This document shows positions 118 through 4,182 of a stretch of DNA of 4,457 bases, piece by piece. Origin of the DNA: a virus (taxonomy: Duplodnaviria > Heunggongvirae > Uroviricota > Caudoviricetes); IMG/VR virus record IMGVR_UViG_3300030444_000070; one strand, 5' to 3'. A model generated the notes under the pieces. It ran no database searches. It was given only the letters and a program-made list of their open reading frames with translations, and was not told the DNA's origin. A program made the position numbers and the translations under genes. Numbering within the stretch: position 1 is the stretch's first letter; the number at the start of each line of letters is the position of its first letter.

Positions 118-273
118 TTACCTTTCAGATTCGTAGGCTGTGAAGACAGTGACCTCCGTCTGGCCGGTTCGGATTCGTACCTCGCAGAGGTCTTTCCTCG
201 TTACCAGTGCCGTCACAATGACGGTTAAACAGATGACGATCAGAGCGATTAACATCGCTTTTTGCTGCTTCAT
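118..273 (-). CDS. hok: Hok/Gef-family type I toxin, 51 aa (MKQQKAMLIALIVICLTVIVTALVTRKDLCEVRIRTGQTEVTVFTAYESER)
   Basis: Own translation of the minus strand: ATG at 273..271, TAA at 120..118. The ORF is below the six-frame track size cutoff. SD-like CAAGGAGAAG lies 6 nt upstream of the ATG, as in R1 hok. The protein has the Hok/Gef hallmarks: single N-terminal TM helix, LVTRKDLCE motif, C-terminal FTAYE. It most resembles Gef/HokC and RelF/HokD from memory; the exact paralog is not assigned. Confidence 0.85.
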   Translation of the reverse strand: MKQQKAMLIALIVICLTVIVTALVTRKDLCEVRIRTGQTEVTVFTAYESER

Positions 274-331
274 AGCCTGCTTCTCCTTGACCTTTTGGTC
301 GGTAAGAGGCTAATCTACGTATGCTAAGCAT
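125..331 (-). CDS. mok: Mok-like overlapping reading frame (modulator of killing), 68 aa, coupling hok translation
   Basis: ORF-track frame 125..331 overlaps hok in a different frame and ends 7 nt before the hok stop, as mok does in hok/sok loci. GAGG lies 9 nt upstream of its ATG. The protein itself is low-complexity, which is typical for Mok. Confidence 0.5.
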   Translation of the reverse strand: MLSIRRLASYRPKGQGEAGYEAAKSDVNRSDRHLFNRHCDGTGNEERPLRGTNPNRPDGGHCLHSLRI

Positions 332-385
332 AGATATGGCCTCAGATTAATGTTAAGCGTCTTGCAGGACGCGTAATGTTATCTG
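321..385 (+). ncRNA. sok: Predicted Sok-like antisense RNA covering the mok translation initiation region
   Basis: Plus-strand promoter candidate TTGACC (287..292), 16-nt spacer, GCTAAT (309..314) inside the mok 5' end puts the start near 321. The transcript would be antisense to the mok SD and start codon. A GC hairpin GCGTC-TTGCAG-GACGC (357..372) followed by a U-rich tract gives a ~64-nt RNA. Boundaries are approximate. Confidence 0.35.
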
Positions 386-440
386 GGGCTTTCTTCTATC
401 TGCTTTTCGGGTCATGCCTGAAGCAGATAGCCTCAAGCAC

Positions 441-480
441 CCGCAACGATTGTATCAATGTCTGGCTTTTTTTCTATAGA
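441..480 (-). promoter_or_regulatory. Predicted hok mRNA promoter (extended -10 TGaTACAAT) and transcript start
   Basis: Minus strand reads CATTGATACAAT (rc of 449..460) with a TG extension. About 7 nt downstream the transcript would begin GGTGCTTGAGGCTATCTGC, which closely resembles the 5' end of R1 hok mRNA (GGCGCTTGAGGCTTTCTGCC, recalled from memory). A 10-bp inverted repeat CTATCTGCTT / AAGCAGATAG (396..405 and 421..430) would form a 5' leader hairpin. Confidence 0.35.
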
Positions 481-700
481 AATCACCTGGAAGGGTGAAT
501 ATCCACATCAGAAGAAATGTTGCAGCAAACATGATCCCTAATGGCCAGACCGCGCCAAAGAAAATCCATACTAAGATCTCCTCTGCTCGTTCTTTGCGGT
601 CGATATCGACAAGCATTTTTCGGCTGATCATGTATACACAGAAGCCAATACAAACATATCCTGCAAAAGCGATCGCTAACTGTAAAAAATCAGATTGCAT
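455..700 (-). CDS. Small membrane protein of unknown function, 81 aa, two predicted TM segments
   Basis: Track ORF 455..781. I prefer the internal ATG at 700..698 because GAGG lies 6 nt upstream; the 781 start has no SD and would overlap the repL stop. Two hydrophobic stretches (FLQLAIAFAGYVCIGFCVYMI and ILVWIFFGAVWPLGIMFAATFLLMWIF) are separated by a charged loop, and the C-terminus is basic. No family recognised. Confidence 0.5.
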   Translation of the reverse strand: MQSDFLQLAIAFAGYVCIGFCVYMISRKMLVDIDRKERAEEILVWIFFGAVWPLGIMFAATFLLMWIFTLPGDFYRKKARH

Positions 701-750
701 CTCCGACCTCAAACTGAAAACGCCAGGTGACTCCAGATTAGAGCAATCTA

Positions 751-1596
751 TCACCCCCTGAATCCTGCCGGTATACCCCATTTTTCGTTATCTTTATTTT
801 TGGCTAAAACCGCATTAAGAGCTTCGTTTACCGTCATGCAATGCGGTAGATTATCGAAGTTTGATATCCCGCCAATATCAGGCGAACGCTTGTTCTTCAG
901 GTAAGCATATTTCCGCGCAGCCGCCTCTACTTTCTGCTTGAACTCATGTTTTTGAGCGCGTTTTTTGGATAACCGCAGATTGTCAGCCTTTGCTTTTGCC
1001 TCAGCGATCCATGAAGTCAATTTTTTGAGTCTGGTCGTTCCGGCACCGCCGGAAACTGATCTTTTTGTTTTTTTAACTTGTGACTTCTTATTCTTTATTG
1101 CCACGTCATCCTGACAGGGGGAGGGGGTATCATTTTGACATGGGGGTGTGGATAAAAAATCAAATAAAGCCAATGTCTTAGCGAGAACAGCTTTAACCTT
1201 GGTTGCGGCTGAAGAGATCTTTAATTTGCTTTCAATCAGCGCGTTTTTAGCGTGTTGTGCGAAGGCCAAAAAGGATGGTGTAAACCGGTACAGGTTAGCG
1301 CGGCGTTCACGGTGATCGCCGATAACAATCTCTACCGACAGGATTCCTTTGTTTACAGCTTCACGGAATGCGCGAACGACGGTTGATTGGCTATAACCAG
1401 TTTCTGCCGCGATCATGCGGTGAGGCTTGTGAATGAAGTATTCACTGGTTGTTGCCGCGAGATTTGCACATTGCGACAGGATATGCCCGGCGCTACGGGA
1501 TAGACCGGAGTGTGTTACAAAGCAGGCCAATTCATAGCCAGAAAAAGTAAAATCGCTCATCGTTATACAGCTCAGGAAAGTGACTTTAGCCAGCAT
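751..1596 (-). CDS. repL: RepL-like lytic replication initiator, 281 aa, winged-HTH (RMIAAETGYSQSTVVRAFREAVNKGIL), lysine-rich C-terminal half
   Basis: Long ORF immediately downstream of kilA with a 29-bp gap. The order (operator, kilA, repL) and the size (281 aa, matching my recollection of P1 RepL) fit the P1 lytic replicon. HTH motif seen directly in the translation. The start could instead be the second Met at 1560; neither has a strong SD. Confidence 0.8.
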   Translation of the reverse strand: MLAKVTFLSCITMSDFTFSGYELACFVTHSGLSRSAGHILSQCANLAATTSEYFIHKPHRMIAAETGYSQSTVVRAFREAVNKGILSVEIVIGDHRERRANLYRFTPSFLAFAQHAKNALIESKLKISSAATKVKAVLAKTLALFDFLSTPPCQNDTPSPCQDDVAIKNKKSQVKKTKRSVSGGAGTTRLKKLTSWIAEAKAKADNLRLSKKRAQKHEFKQKVEAAARKYAYLKNKRSPDIGGISNFDNLPHCMTVNEALNAVLAKNKDNEKWGIPAGFRG

Positions 1597-1625: not shown

Positions 1626-2426
1626 TTAGCGCGTAGCCGCGACAGGTACCAGCACACCAGCATCAAGCAATCGCTTCATTAGCCACTGCTGACCTTTGCC
1701 GGTTATACGAGTCGTGAAAGAAATCCTGCTTCCGTTGCTTGTATCGATCACGGTTTCTTTGAGGGTGAAGTACCCACGGGATATGTATTCTTGTTTGGGG
1801 ACGTTCCTGCGTTCATCGGTTGCGATCAGAATTCCGTTATCACGCAACCAGGTGAAGAGATAGTTTTGGCCCAGGCCGAGCACTTTGGCATAGTTGCCGA
1901 TTAGAACCCCGCTGGCGGTAGCAACGCGTTCGGCGAATTCGACTTTAGGCGCATCCATAAGCATTTTTTGCTCCAGCCGTTGCTTTTGCTCTGCCAGGTC
2001 GGCAGCCAAACGGAGAGCTTCAGGGAGACTCTGCGGAATAGCAGGTTGCAATCTTCCGGCTCGATAGTCGATAAATGTCTGGTTTACCTTCAGCCGAAAC
2101 GCGGGAGAAATCCAGCCTGCGTACTCCACAGCGAGCAATTCATGGGCAAACGTACCGCCGCCACGGCCTTCGAACGAAACTATGCAATTCTGCATAGTTT
2201 CTTTTTCAAGCTCTTCGATGAGCTGTTTGGCTGACAGCGTTCTTAGCCATTGAGCTGGCGCTTTATGGGCACCGAGTCCGCTCGCTCTGTGTAGAGCATT
2301 AAGGTTGTAACGGCCAGCGCGGTCGGTCGTAATTTCAACACCACAAATAACAGGCAGAGTGGTTGAAGGATCGACATTTTGATGAAGGTTTGATATATTC
2401 ATATCCGCATTGAATGTTTGTTGCAT
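1626..2426 (-). CDS. kilA: KilA protein, 266 aa: N-terminal KilA-N DNA-binding domain plus C-terminal KilAC/ANT domain
   Basis: Track ORF with GGAG 7-8 nt upstream of the ATG. The N-terminus (VICGVEITTDRAGRYNLNALHRASG...APAQWLRT) looks like KilA-N. The C-terminal ~130 aa are clearly homologous to the C-terminus of the neighbouring ant product. The size agrees with my recollection of P1 KilA (266 aa). Confidence 0.85.
   Translation of the reverse strand: MQQTFNADMNISNLHQNVDPSTTLPVICGVEITTDRAGRYNLNALHRASGLGAHKAPAQWLRTLSAKQLIEELEKETMQNCIVSFEGRGGGTFAHELLAVEYAGWISPAFRLKVNQTFIDYRAGRLQPAIPQSLPEALRLAADLAEQKQRLEQKMLMDAPKVEFAERVATASGVLIGNYAKVLGLGQNYLFTWLRDNGILIATDERRNVPKQEYISRGYFTLKETVIDTSNGSRISFTTRITGKGQQWLMKRLLDAGVLVPVAATR
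2371..2399 (+). promoter_or_regulatory. Plus-strand antisense promoter (P53as-like): TCGACA, 17 nt, TGaTATATT
   Basis: -35 TCGACA at 2371..2376, 17-nt spacer, -10 TATATT at 2394..2399 with a TG extension at 2391..2392. It sits inside the first codons of kilA and points away from the gene toward the operator region. Confidence 0.45.
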
Positions 2427-2512: not shown

Positions 2513-2554
2513 TTTTTCTGACTCGATCCAGATCGGGTTGGTCGATCTGCTCAG

Positions 2555-2592
2555 AAACCTGCCAGTTTGCTGGCAGGTTTTTTCTTTTGTTA
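2555..2592 (+). terminator. Rho-independent terminator: stem CCTGCCAG / CTGGCAGG, loop TTTG, then TTTTTTCTTTTGT
   Basis: Perfect 8-bp stem (extendable by AAA/TTT pairs) with the T-tract on the plus strand. On the minus strand it is preceded by an A-tract and followed by GTTTCTGAG, so it may also act weakly after ant. The T-tract overlaps the ant stop codon. Confidence 0.6.
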
Positions 2593-3384
2593 ACCTATTG
2601 CTACTGGTTTTAACAAACCAGCATCAAGTAGCTTGCGAGTTAACCACTGCTGGCCTTTACCCGTTAATTGGGGCGTCAGCCGTATCTGGTAGCCATTTTC
2701 ATCATCCAGCACCACTTCTTTCACCGTGAAATACCCGGCGTTAATGTACTGCTGGCGCGGTACGTTTTTGCGCGCACCAAAAGCCATGAGAATGCCGTTC
2801 TGGCGCAACCATGAGAAAAGGGCGTTTTGCTTAAGTCCAACGACCTTTGCAAAGTTCCCGATCAGGATTCCATTAGCCGCTGATACCCGGTCGGCAAAAT
2901 CGACTTTAGGGGCTGCGGCCACCAGCTGTTGTTCCAACTGCATTTTCTGTTCTGCCAACTCGGCAGCCAGGCGTAGAGCGTCTGGTAATGTTTGGGGGAT
3001 CGATGGGGCAGGGGAGTTTGCCTGCTGCAATTCTTCCAGTTTGTCGATCAGCGAACGGCGGACTGCTTTTGACTCGCGCGCGGCGACTCGCAGGGCTTGT
3101 TTGTAGGTCATGGTTATGACAACCATAGGCGTACCGCCACCTGGCGGCACGGTTGCACTTTTTGTGTAACCGTCCTCACCTTCTAATTCGTCGAGTATTT
3201 TTTTGATGAATTTGTTGTTCCGAACCTCTGGTTCCCCACATAACTTACGCGCTTCATTGACCATCTTTAACAGCGTCTGGCTGTCGATTGTGTCTCCAGT
3301 GTTGGAGATAACATTCACAGCTGGTGATGGCGTAGCTGAAGCAACAGATGCTGGTTTTTTAACATTCAAATTATTACTGGTCAT
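2590..3384 (-). CDS. ant2: Antirepressor Ant2, 264 aa: in-frame internal initiation product of the same ORF
   Basis: In-frame ATG at 3384..3382 is preceded by a strong SD, AAGGAGG, with an 8-nt spacer. P1 ant is known to produce Ant1 and Ant2 from two in-frame starts (recalled). Whether both are used here is an inference. Confidence 0.45.
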   Translation of the reverse strand: MTSNNLNVKKPASVASATPSPAVNVISNTGDTIDSQTLLKMVNEARKLCGEPEVRNNKFIKKILDELEGEDGYTKSATVPPGGGTPMVVITMTYKQALRVAARESKAVRRSLIDKLEELQQANSPAPSIPQTLPDALRLAAELAEQKMQLEQQLVAAAPKVDFADRVSAANGILIGNFAKVVGLKQNALFSWLRQNGILMAFGARKNVPRQQYINAGYFTVKEVVLDDENGYQIRLTPQLTGKGQQWLTRKLLDAGLLKPVAIG

Positions 3385-3633
3385 TCTATGTGCCTCCTTT
3401 CTCATTTCTGCTGCCACCGTTGCGTAACGTAGACGTCCTTGTTCAATCAAATAATCCCTGATCTCGGCTATCAGTAGCCTGTTGATCACAGCCTTATCTG
3501 TTCGGGTATAAAAACGTCTGGTTATCATGAAATAGTTGGCAATTGCGCCGGGGATCTCCCGTGTCGGCATACAGGCAGTATGCAGGGCGATCGCTTCGGC
3601 TATGTCATTACGGGTGACGAGAGGTTTTTTCAT
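2590..3633 (-). CDS. ant1: Antirepressor Ant1, 347 aa, with C-terminal KilAC/ANT domain
   Basis: Track ORF. The ATG at 3633 overlaps the stop of the upstream icd-like ORF as ATGA, and AGGGGG lies 4 nt upstream. The C-terminal ~130 aa (LPDALRLAAELAEQK...GKGQQWL) are paralogous to the KilA C-terminus. The middle region loosely resembles Rha-like regulators. Confidence 0.8.
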   Translation of the reverse strand: MKKPLVTRNDIAEAIALHTACMPTREIPGAIANYFMITRRFYTRTDKAVINRLLIAEIRDYLIEQGRLRYATVAAEMRKEAHRMTSNNLNVKKPASVASATPSPAVNVISNTGDTIDSQTLLKMVNEARKLCGEPEVRNNKFIKKILDELEGEDGYTKSATVPPGGGTPMVVITMTYKQALRVAARESKAVRRSLIDKLEELQQANSPAPSIPQTLPDALRLAAELAEQKMQLEQQLVAAAPKVDFADRVSAANGILIGNFAKVVGLKQNALFSWLRQNGILMAFGARKNVPRQQYINAGYFTVKEVVLDDENGYQIRLTPQLTGKGQQWLTRKLLDAGLLKPVAIG

Positions 3634-3851
3634 AAAACCCCCTGAACGTCGGCAGAGAAGGGGAGGTTCCAGTAACTAAGTGAATTGCGCGAGTTAGTTG
3701 AAAAACGGGCAGTAAAAATGCAGGGGCCATCAGGCAATTGAGAGCGTGCTTCGTCTTCTGTTGCTGCGATGACGAAGTGATAGTGGTGTTTTTTGCAGGA
3801 ATAGAAACGCCAGATGAATTCTTGGCGTGCGCAAGGATTGGCATTAACCAT
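3630..3851 (-). CDS. icd: Icd-like small protein, 73 aa, translationally coupled to ant
   Basis: Track ORF (MVNANPCARQEFIWRFYSCKKHHYHF...). GAGG lies 8 nt upstream of the ATG. Its TGA overlaps the ant ATG (ATGA). Size (73 aa) and position between the c4-like region and ant match P1 icd. The protein sequence itself is not independently recognised. Confidence 0.55.
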   Translation of the reverse strand: MVNANPCARQEFIWRFYSCKKHHYHFVIAATEDEARSQLPDGPCIFTARFSTNSRNSLSYWNLPFSADVQGVL

Positions 3852-3907
3852 AGTTACGGCCTCACAATCAGGTTTAACAACCTGCTACCCGCTGCTAAAC
3901 AGGTGGC

Positions 3908-3990
3908 AGGACGTGACGGGGTTAGCAGACTGGCGATTGTGAAACCAGCAGGCCGAAGCCTCCCCATCACGCCCCACCATAATTTGGGCG
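3908..3990 (-). ncRNA. c4: Predicted c4-like antisense repressor RNA
   Basis: On the minus strand, UCACAAUC (rc of 3935..3942) and CUGCUAAC (rc of 3922..3929) lie 6 nt apart. Each is complementary to two target pairs on the same transcript: upstream GUUUAGCAG (rc 4061..4069) and GAUUGUG (rc 4047..4053), and downstream GUUUAGCAG (rc 3892..3900) and GAUUGUGA (rc 3862..3869), the last overlapping the icd SD GUGAGG. Local hairpins place the first motif in a loop. The RNA ends are not determinable from sequence; boundaries are approximate. Confidence 0.35.
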
Positions 3991-4098
3991 TAACGCGGTT
4001 TTACGGACACAAAAATACCGCAATATCGGATATCTGCGGCTGTCCGCACAATCATTCAGGCTGCTAAACCCGGTCGCAGAATTTGCTACGACGGCGAA

Positions 4099-4127
4099 AC
4101 TATAAGCCTGAACGATTAAAAGGTCAA
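4099..4127 (-). promoter_or_regulatory. Sigma70 promoter for the c4-icd-ant operon (P51-like): TTGACC, 17 nt, TATAGT
   Basis: Minus strand: -35 TTGACC (rc of 4122..4127), exact 17-nt spacer, -10 TATAGT (rc of 4099..4104). Predicted start near 4092, upstream of both upstream target motifs. Confidence 0.5.
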
Positions 4128-4165: not shown

Positions 4166-4182
4166 AAATTTATTAGAGCAGA
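4166..4182 (-). promoter_or_regulatory. C1-type repressor operator (Op51-like) upstream of the immunity-I operon promoter
   Basis: Minus-strand 17-mer TCTGCTCTAATAAATTT matches the recalled P1 C1 operator consensus at 15/17. It is nearly identical to the 2496..2512 copy, and the flanks are also conserved (~27/33 over 2483..2515 versus 4153..4185). Confidence 0.5.

What the first reader, a model, noticed from the sequence alone, without database searches (positions are those of the whole stretch)
3382..3633. Two in-frame start sites in ant with very different ribosome-binding sites
The long form starts at 3633, coupled to icd through an ATGA overlap. An internal in-frame ATG at 3384 has a near-perfect SD (AAGGAGG, 8-nt spacer). 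Gene callers may annotate only one, but the arrangement suggests two products (Ant1 and Ant2) with differential regulation.
Basis: partly seen in the sequence, partly recalled or inferred. Interest (0 to 1): 0.4.

Follow-up and report, generated by a model that had tools for sequence, protein, structure and literature searches.

The report
Phage P1 ant1/ant2 nested antirepressor starts
The two in-frame start sites are real and conserved, but they are the long-known ant1/ant2 antirepressor pair of bacteriophage P1, here in an E. coli P1-like phage-plasmid, so the finding is correct but ordinary.

Summary
On the minus strand, a 347-codon ORF starts at ATG 3633 and shares ATGA with the icd stop. 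An in-frame ATG at 3384 (codon 84) lies 8 nt after AAGGAGG (3399-3393). The window is a P1-like phage-plasmid immI operon: C1 operator, C4 antisense RNA, icd, ant, then kilA and repL. It is 99.9% identical to E. coli IncY plasmids and about 96-98% identical to P1 and P7. GenBank records for P1 (X15639, NC_005856) and P7 (AF503408) annotate ant1 and ant2 with the same 249-nt offset, and X15639 annotates this very ribosome-binding site. Published work describes Ant1/Ant2 as a heterodimeric antirepressor of C1. AAGGAGG is invariant in 94 loci (42 distinct sequences). These include a second module only 66% identical at DNA level, one form of which has a different protein body after the internal Met. 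The "very different RBS" claim needs nuance. ant1 also has a G-rich SD (AGGGGG), but with a 4-nt spacer and inside a weak hairpin, whereas the ant2 site is canonical and unstructured. Differential regulation remains an inference. Verdict: already known, low interest.

The parts
4166..4182 (-). C1 repressor operator at the immI promoter (equivalent of P1 Oc4/Op51)
   Evidence: Exact TGCTCTAATAAATTT at 4166-4180. The corresponding P1 feature is annotated as a C1 operator controlling c4.
4099..4127 (-). Sigma-70-like promoter TTGACC-17-TATAGT (position of P1 P1c4/P51b)
   Evidence: Consensus scan, 10 of 12 matches. The P1 annotation places promoters here. Function is inferred.
4053..4105 (-). a1/b1 target sites of C4 RNA
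   Evidence: Rfam RF03163, 54.6 bits against a gathering score of 46.7.
3899..3984 (-). C4 antisense RNA gene
   Evidence: Rfam RF01695, 69.6 bits against a gathering score of 45.
3892..3898 (-). a2 target of C4 RNA (TTAGCAG)
   Evidence: Position transferred from the P1 annotation. Complementary to CUGCUAA in the C4 RNA of the window.
3862..3869 (-). b2 target of C4 RNA (GATTGTGA), overlapping the icd Shine-Dalgarno GAGG
   Evidence: Position transferred from the P1 annotation. Complementary to UCACAAUC in C4.
3630..3851 (-). icd, 73 codons; its stop overlaps the ant1 start (ATGA)
   Evidence: ORF list; NCBIfam phage_ICD_like, 52.7 bits; P1/P7 annotation.
3634..3643 (-). ant1 SD-like AGGGGG plus the 4-nt spacer TTTT, paired in a local hairpin (3650-3606) with the AUG in the loop
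   Evidence: Anti-SD duplex -10 kcal/mol. Hairpin -13.1 kcal/mol but z = -1.2, not significant. The sequence varies among relatives.
2590..3633 (-). ant1 CDS, 347 aa, 38.3 kDa: N-terminal helical domain (1 to about 88), disordered linker (90-111), central domain, KilAC domain (234-336)
3393..3399 (-). ant2 Shine-Dalgarno AAGGAGG (codons Lys79-Glu80-Ala81 of ant1)
   Evidence: Annotated as an RBS in X15639. Invariant in 94 loci. The local RNA is unstructured, -3.1 kcal/mol.
2590..3384 (-). ant2 CDS, 264 aa, 28.7 kDa, nested in frame in ant1
   Evidence: Same offset as the annotated ant2 of P1 and P7; molecular mass.
2553..2582 (-). GC-rich hairpin after the ant stop; terminator-like
   Evidence: Pattern scan; it scored on the plus strand, and the T-run is weaker on the minus strand. 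Function is inferred.

Best explanation
This is the ant1/ant2 gene of the immI immunity operon of a P1-like phage-plasmid. One mRNA runs from the C1-controlled promoter through c4, icd and ant. Ribosomes make the 347-aa Ant1 by starting at 3633. That site overlaps the icd stop (ATGA), has a G-rich SD only 4 nt from the AUG, and lies in a weak hairpin, so initiation there most likely depends on ribosomes finishing icd (translational coupling). Ribosomes independently make the 264-aa Ant2 by direct initiation at 3384, on a canonical, unstructured AAGGAGG-8 nt-AUG site inside the ant1 frame. Ant2 has the architecture of an ordinary stand-alone antirepressor (central domain plus KilAC). Ant1 is the same protein with an extra 83-residue helical domain. 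The two associate and inactivate the C1 repressor. In a lysogen both are kept off together: C1 acts at the operator, and C4 antisense RNA pairs with a2/b2 over the icd RBS. By my recollection of Biere et al. 1992, which I could not read here, that pairing also causes premature Rho-dependent termination before ant. Shown here: the anatomy, orthology to the annotated P1/P7 genes, conservation of the internal RBS, the domain boundary and the RNA elements. Taken from annotation and literature: two proteins forming a complex with C1. Inferred: the coupling mechanism for ant1, the ratio of the two products, and the origin of Ant1 by fusion.
For: Identity: 99.9% to E. coli IncY P1-like plasmids and 96-98% to P1 and P7. 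Ant1 is 93-97% identical to hundreds of 'phage antirepressor Ant/KilAC' proteins. Start sites: identical to the annotated ant1/ant2 of P1 and P7 and to the annotated RBS (alignment). The annotation notes say 'contained within ant1 and translated in the same frame' and 'formation of Ant1/Ant2/C1 complex'. Literature: Ant1-Ant2 heterodimer antirepressor repressed by c4 RNA (PMC8546580; PMC8198154); icd is 'apparently required for ant expression' (PMC8201110; P1 annotation). Conservation: AAGGAGG is invariant in 94 loci (42 distinct N-domain sequences); the start is ATG in 90 loci and GTG in 4. AAGGAGGC is one of the three longest invariant runs in the 252-nt N-domain, of which 108 columns vary. 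It is kept in the paralogous module, which is 66% identical in nucleotides and 63% in amino acids, even where the protein after Met84 is replaced by an ORF6N-KilAC body (P0131). AAG and GAG are the minority codons in these genes (joint probability 0.09). RNA: the ant2 site is unstructured (-3.1 and -5.1 kcal/mol, weaker than most shuffles), whereas the ant1 site folds at -12 to -13 kcal/mol with its SD paired in all three lineages. Architecture: about 120 of the 150 best 50%-cluster representatives are proteins of roughly 220-260 aa whose own N-termini project onto Ant1 residues about 91-106. The AlphaFold model shows a helical domain at 1 to about 88, a disordered stretch at 90-111 (pLDDT below 50), then confident domains. 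Regulation: C4 RNA, a1/b1, a2/b2 and C1 operators are all present.
Confidence: 0.93

Rival explanations
1. The internal AAGGAGG-ATG is a coincidence of Lys-Glu-Ala...Met codons, and only the full-length protein is made.
For: In the window alone the motif is only mildly above chance: AAGGAGG has 0.42 expected and appears in 68 of 200 shuffles. Automatic annotation of near-identical plasmids lists a single CDS.
Against: The SD is invariant in 94 loci, including a lineage 66% identical in nucleotides, while flanking synonymous sites change. It uses the minority codons AAG and GAG. The local RNA is unusually open. The curated P1 and P7 records annotate ant2 and its RBS, and papers describe an Ant1-Ant2 heterodimer.
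Confidence: 0.03
2. Only Ant2 is a real protein. The upstream 83 codons are an untranslated or separately acting leader, or a mis-called extension.
For: Most homologous antirepressors lack the N-terminal 83 residues and begin near Ant1 residues 91-106. The ant1 start has a poor 3-4-nt spacer.
Against: The 83 codons stay open and in frame with ATGA coupling in both lineages. They show a protein-like substitution pattern: 63% amino-acid identity against 66% nucleotide identity, with many synonymous changes. They are predicted to fold as a helical domain (pLDDT about 90 over residues 10-70, pTM 0.70). A homolog of this domain exists as part of another protein elsewhere (P0177). The P1 and P7 records annotate Ant1.
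Confidence: 0.03
3. Ant2 is regulated separately, for example from an internal promoter within the first 250 nt of ant1, and so escapes C4/icd control (true differential regulation at the transcript level).
For: The strong, open, independent RBS would allow translation from any transcript that reaches it. The P1 annotation predicts an IHF site just after the ant2 start.
Against: The scan found no sigma-70-like promoter on the minus strand between 3384 and 3633. Published descriptions have C4 RNA repressing synthesis of the Ant proteins together.
Confidence: 0.05

Closest known systems
Bacteriophage P1 ant1/ant2 (immI operon; GenBank X15639, NC_005856)
   Same: The operon order, the ATGA overlap between icd and ant1, the 249-nt offset, the AAGGAGGCACATAGAATG internal site, the product lengths (347 and 264 aa), and the C4 RNA and C1 operator are all the same.
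   Different: There is about 4% nucleotide divergence. The ant1 SD run is GGGGGTTTT rather than GGGGGGTTT. Codon 77 is ATG rather than ATA. The flanks differ: hok/sok replaces rlfA/rlfB, and there are no sim genes upstream.
Bacteriophage P7 ant1/ant2 (AF503408)
   Same: Same arrangement, annotated 'contained within ant1 and translated in the same frame'. It is 98.1% identical over the shared part, and codon 77 is ATG as in the window.
   Different: P7 Ant1 is one codon longer (1047-nt CDS), and the flanking genes differ.
Second C4-icd-ant module of P1-like plasmids (between pacB and c1; for example RCS47-type, P0123/P0131)
   Same: It has C4 RNA, a 73-codon icd, ATGA coupling, the 83-codon N-domain, and the identical internal AAGGAGGCACAYAGAATG.
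   Different: It is only 63% identical in amino acids in the N-domain. The ant1 SD is AGGAGGG. In P0131 the body after Met84 is ORF6N plus KilAC instead of the P1 central domain.
Phage D6 icd-antirepressor
   Same: It has C4 RNA, a1/b1, and icd with a stop/start overlap (TGATG) to an antirepressor gene.
   Different: The antirepressor is Rha/Roi-like. It has no 83-residue N-domain and no annotated nested second start.
Other nested in-frame isoform pairs in bacteria and phages (IF2 alpha/beta, CheA long/short, ClpB 93/79, lambda S107/S105) - from general knowledge
   Same: One ORF gives two products from an upstream and an internal initiation site, and the short form often modulates or partners the long form.
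   Different: The proteins are unrelated. Here the long form is additionally coupled to an upstream ORF that is itself the target of an antisense RNA.

Membership tests
P1/P7 immI ant1/ant2 antirepressor gene | Protein orthologous to P1/P7 Ant1 along its whole length | tested here: met
   93-97% identity at 100% coverage to database Ant proteins. DNA is 96-98% identical to P1 and P7.
P1/P7 immI ant1/ant2 antirepressor gene | Two in-frame starts 249 nt apart, the internal one preceded by AAGGAGG at 8 nt | tested here: met
   Same positions as the annotated ant1/ant2 and the RBS feature.
P1/P7 immI ant1/ant2 antirepressor gene | An upstream icd ORF whose stop overlaps the ant1 start | tested here: met
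   ATGA at 3633-3630. icd matches the NCBIfam Icd-like family.
P1/P7 immI ant1/ant2 antirepressor gene | C4 antisense RNA and its a/b target sites upstream in the same operon | tested here: met
   Rfam RF01695 and RF03163 score above their gathering thresholds. The a2/b2 sites are complementary to the C4 loops.
P1/P7 immI ant1/ant2 antirepressor gene | A C1 operator at the operon promoter | tested here: met
   Exact TGCTCTAATAAATTT at 4166-4180.
P1/P7 immI ant1/ant2 antirepressor gene | Both proteins are made and form a complex that inactivates C1 | not testable with these tools
   Known only from annotation notes and secondary literature.
KilAC-domain phage antirepressors (Pfam PF03374 ANT) | A C-terminal KilAC domain above the Pfam gathering score | tested here: met
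   107.6 bits against a cutoff of 25.3, residues 234-336.
Translationally coupled gene pair (icd to ant1) | Downstream initiation depends on translation of the upstream ORF | not testable with these tools
   Only the anatomy is consistent: the ATGA overlap, the short spacer, and the SD paired in a weak hairpin. The P1 annotation says icd is 'apparently required for expression of ant'.

The most novel reading that the evidence does not exclude
The 83-codon N-terminal segment, with its embedded AAGGAGG-N8-ATG, behaves as a portable cassette. Ant2 corresponds to an ancestral, complete stand-alone antirepressor that kept its own RBS. The N-domain, which also occurs outside antirepressors (P0177, next to ProQ/SSB genes), was fused upstream. 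Recombination right after the internal Met can then swap in different antirepressor bodies: the P1 central domain, ORF6N, or both together in the 467-aa P0122. Each resulting gene would automatically produce a long/short isoform pair. I found no description of this modular view of the cassette, or any function for the N-domain, in the papers I could search.
Probability: 0.5. Interest if true: 0.3.

Novelty: already known. Interest (0 to 1): 0.1.

Why it matters
It matters little as a discovery. The nested ant1/ant2 starts have been in GenBank since the 1989 P1 immI sequence (X15639) and are part of the textbook tripartite immunity system of P1 and P7. There are two practical points. First, automatic annotation of the many P1-like phage-plasmids lists only one Ant CDS, so Ant2 is systematically missing from those records. 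Second, the internal RBS is strictly conserved across divergent and chimeric modules, which argues that the two-isoform design is functionally required. That leaves one small open question: what the Ant1-specific 83-residue domain does.

Tried and rejected
(1) Primary papers: Lobocka 2004 (PMC523184) and Riedel 1993 (PMC204598) are not held, so the experimental claims rest on GenBank annotation, secondary papers and memory.
(2) The search for homologous proteins with full Ant1 returned only relatives at least 91% identical in its top 120, which was useless for the conservation test. The 50%-cluster search solved this.
(3) The genome-contig scan for the N-domain found only 6 loci, in two lineages, so the domain has a narrow distribution and deep covariation or dN/dS tests are not possible.
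(4) SD sequestration at ant1: hairpins exist in all three lineages but are no better than shuffled sequence. I kept this only as a suggestion.
(6) MAFFT placement of homolog N-termini was an artefact, with the initial Met stuck at column 50. I used the phmmer coordinates instead.
(7) An internal promoter for ant2: none was found by the consensus scan.
(8) The in-frame ATG at 3405 as a third start: rejected, because its SD is weak (-5.1 kcal/mol) and it is not conserved.

Full report
**What is in the window.** All relevant features are on the minus strand. Rfam finds the a1/b1 targets of C4 RNA at 4105-4053 and the C4 antisense RNA at 3984-3899. It also finds a sok RNA at 442-268. The ORFs are as follows:
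- icd, 3851-3630, 73 aa
- a 347-aa ORF, 3633-2590
- kilA, 2426-1626
- repL, 1596-751
- a 108-aa ORF, 781-455
- a 51-aa hok-type ORF, 273-118

Exact C1-operator cores (TGCTCTAATAAATTT) lie at 4180-4166 and 2510-2496. The whole window is 99.9% identical to E. coli IncY P1-like plasmids such as pECY44-3. It is 96-98% identical to P1 and P7 over the c4-icd-ant-kilA-repL segment. The window is therefore the immI immunity operon plus the lytic replicon of a P1-like phage-plasmid.

**Checking the observation.** The coordinates are right.
- ATG 3633-3631 overlaps the icd stop TGA 3632-3630 (ATGA).
- ATG 3384-3382 is 249 nt downstream, in frame, at codon 84.
- AAGGAGG is at 3399-3393, and the 8-nt spacer CACATAGA follows at 3392-3385.
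- AAGGAGG is unique in the window (0.42 expected by chance). AGGAGG-N5-10-ATG is also unique (0.17 expected).
- Of the 25 in-frame ATG/GTG/TTG codons, codon 84 has the strongest anti-SD pairing (-11.6 kcal/mol). Codon 1 follows (-10.0), and none of the rest is below -6.1.

The motif on its own is only modestly unlikely. The comparative data below make it convincing.

**It is the annotated ant1/ant2 pair.**
- X15639 (P1) annotates ant1 at 540, ant2 at 789 and a ribosome_binding_site at 774-780.
- NC_005856 (P1) annotates ant1 and ant2 at locus positions 2047 and 2296.
- AF503408 (P7) annotates them at 2242 and 2491. Its note reads 'contained within ant1 and translated in the same frame' and 'formation of Ant1/Ant2/C1 complex'.

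The offset is 249 nt in every record. An alignment shows both initiation regions of the window are the same as in P1 and P7, apart from one G-to-T change in the ant1 G-run. [quoted passage not shown] They also say icd is apparently required for ant expression (PMC8201110). That paper's reference list cites the primary work: Heisig et al. 1989, J Mol Biol 209:525, and Riedel et al. 1993, FEBS Lett 334:165. I could not read those papers here. My recollection that they showed two proteins of roughly 42 and 32 kDa apparent mass is from memory.

I collected 94 loci that carry the N-terminal domain followed by the internal site. They contain 42 distinct 252-nt N-domain sequences with 108 variable columns.
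- AAGGAGG is invariant in all 94 loci. The start codon is ATG in 90 loci and GTG in 4.
- AAGGAGGC is one of the three longest invariant runs.

The informative comparison is a paralogous C4-icd-ant module that some P1-like plasmids carry between pacB and c1 (L005-L009). Rfam finds a C4 RNA there as well. Its N-domain is 66% identical in nucleotides and about 63% in amino acids, with many synonymous changes. It nevertheless keeps AAGGAGGCACA(C)AGAATG, and the sequence diverges completely right after the ATG. In one form (P0131, 370 aa) the body after Met84 is ORF6N plus KilAC rather than the P1 central domain. AAG and GAG are the minority Lys and Glu codons in these genes (joint probability 0.09). 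The ant1 SD region, by contrast, varies: GGGGGGTTT, GGGGGTTTT, GGGGGATTT, GGGGGGGTT and GGAGGGACT all occur. The criterion is passed.

**How the two sites differ.** 'Very different RBSs' needs qualification, because the ant1 start has an SD-like AGGGGG (AGGAGGG in the paralog). Its spacer is only 3-4 nt, and it overlaps the icd stop. It is also predicted to pair with the A/C-rich codons just after the AUG: the hairpin energies are -13.1 kcal/mol in the window, -12.1 in P1 and -12.0 in the paralog. These hairpins are not more stable than shuffled controls (z -1.2 to -0.2), so I treat sequestration as suggestive only. The ant2 region is essentially unstructured (-3.1 and -5.1 kcal/mol, weaker than 176 and 195 of 200 shuffles). 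The anatomy thus fits a coupled or re-initiation start for Ant1 and a strong autonomous start for Ant2.

**Why the internal start sits where it does.** I ran a search of 50%-identity cluster representatives with Ant1 residues 1-233.
- About 120 of the best 150 hits are stand-alone proteins of roughly 220-260 aa. Their own N-termini project onto Ant1 residues about 91-106.
- Only 15 hits contain the first 83 residues.
- One gene call starts exactly at Met84 (P0166).

The AlphaFold model (mean pLDDT 83) has four parts:
- a four-helix N-terminal region, 1 to about 88
- a disordered stretch at 90-111 (pLDDT below 50)
- a confident central domain
- the KilAC domain

**Regulation.** The window has the full control apparatus: a C1 operator, a promoter-like site (4127-4099), C4 RNA, and the a2 (3898-3892) and b2 (3869-3862) targets. 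The b2 target overlaps the icd SD and is complementary to the C4 loops. Both Ant products therefore sit behind the same C1 and C4 gate. I remember, but could not verify here, that C4 repression of icd translation causes Rho-dependent termination before ant (Biere et al. 1992). The consensus scan finds no internal promoter between icd and 3384. Differential regulation of Ant1 and Ant2 at the level of translation (coupled versus autonomous) is plausible but not shown.

**Comparison and verdict.** Every testable defining feature of the P1/P7 ant1/ant2 gene is met. Only the protein-level facts cannot be tested with these tools. The finding is a correct re-discovery of a feature annotated since 1989. 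Novelty: already known. Interest: low (0.1). The one mildly new angle is the modular view: the N-domain plus embedded RBS acts as a cassette joined to different antirepressor bodies, and the role of the Ant1-specific domain is unknown.

Noticed in passing
window 3634-3643; proteins P0002-P0005: A few database proteins of 419-420 aa are Icd-Ant1 fusions (...ADVQGGFMKKPL...). They arise from one extra base in the G/T homopolymer run at the icd/ant1 junction (6 G + 4 T, against 5+4 in the window and 6+3 in P1). They could be real variants or homopolymer sequencing errors.
   Followed up: partly
L005-L009 (3001-4113), L013-L015: Many P1-like plasmids carry a second, divergent C4-icd-ant1/2 module between pacB and c1, with its own C4 RNA. 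Its Ant body can be P1-like (P0123), ORF6N-KilAC (P0131), or both domains together (P0122, 467 aa).
   Followed up: partly
L016 3001-3402 (P0177): A homolog of the Ant1-specific N-domain (about 52-55% identity) occurs in a 133-aa protein with no antirepressor part. It lies next to ProQ/FinO-like, SSB and DUF927 genes, which suggests an autonomous domain of unknown function.
   Followed up: partly
L004 4470-4490 (phage D6): In D6, icd is coupled by TGATG directly to a Rha/Roi-type antirepressor. The SD region there reads GGAGGCACAC, the same GGAGGCACA string as the P1 ant2 SD region. This could be chance or a trace of common ancestry of the junction.
   Followed up: no
window 3403-3405: There is another in-frame ATG at codon 77, seven codons before the ant2 start. 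It is present in the window and in P7 but is ATA in P1 and GCA/ACA in the paralogous module, and its SD is weak (-5.1 kcal/mol). It is not a conserved start.
   Followed up: yes
4 of the viral-contig loci L019-L098 (ant2 start region): Four loci have GTG instead of ATG at the ant2 start (AGAGTGACC), with the SD intact. Four others have GCGCGC instead of GCACAT in the spacer.
   Followed up: no
P0128 (135 aa, contig fragment): This variant joins ...AAEMRKEA directly to RKLCSEKPVRNN..., which deletes the ant2 start and the linker. The deletion apparently occurred between the repeated EARK motifs, so it would make only an Ant1-like product.
   Followed up: no
window 118-781: Downstream of repL, the window has a 108-aa ORF (781-455) and a hok/sok toxin-antitoxin locus (sok RNA 442-268, hok-type ORF 273-118) in place of rlfA/rlfB of P1. 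The sequence upstream of about 4180 also departs from the P1 sim region.
   Followed up: partly
window 1626-2426 and 2590-3633: kilA and ant are adjacent paralogs in their C-terminal halves: both have a KilAC domain and the same IPQSLPEALRLAA..PKV.FA.RV motif. KilA has a KilA-N domain where Ant has its central domain.
   Followed up: no
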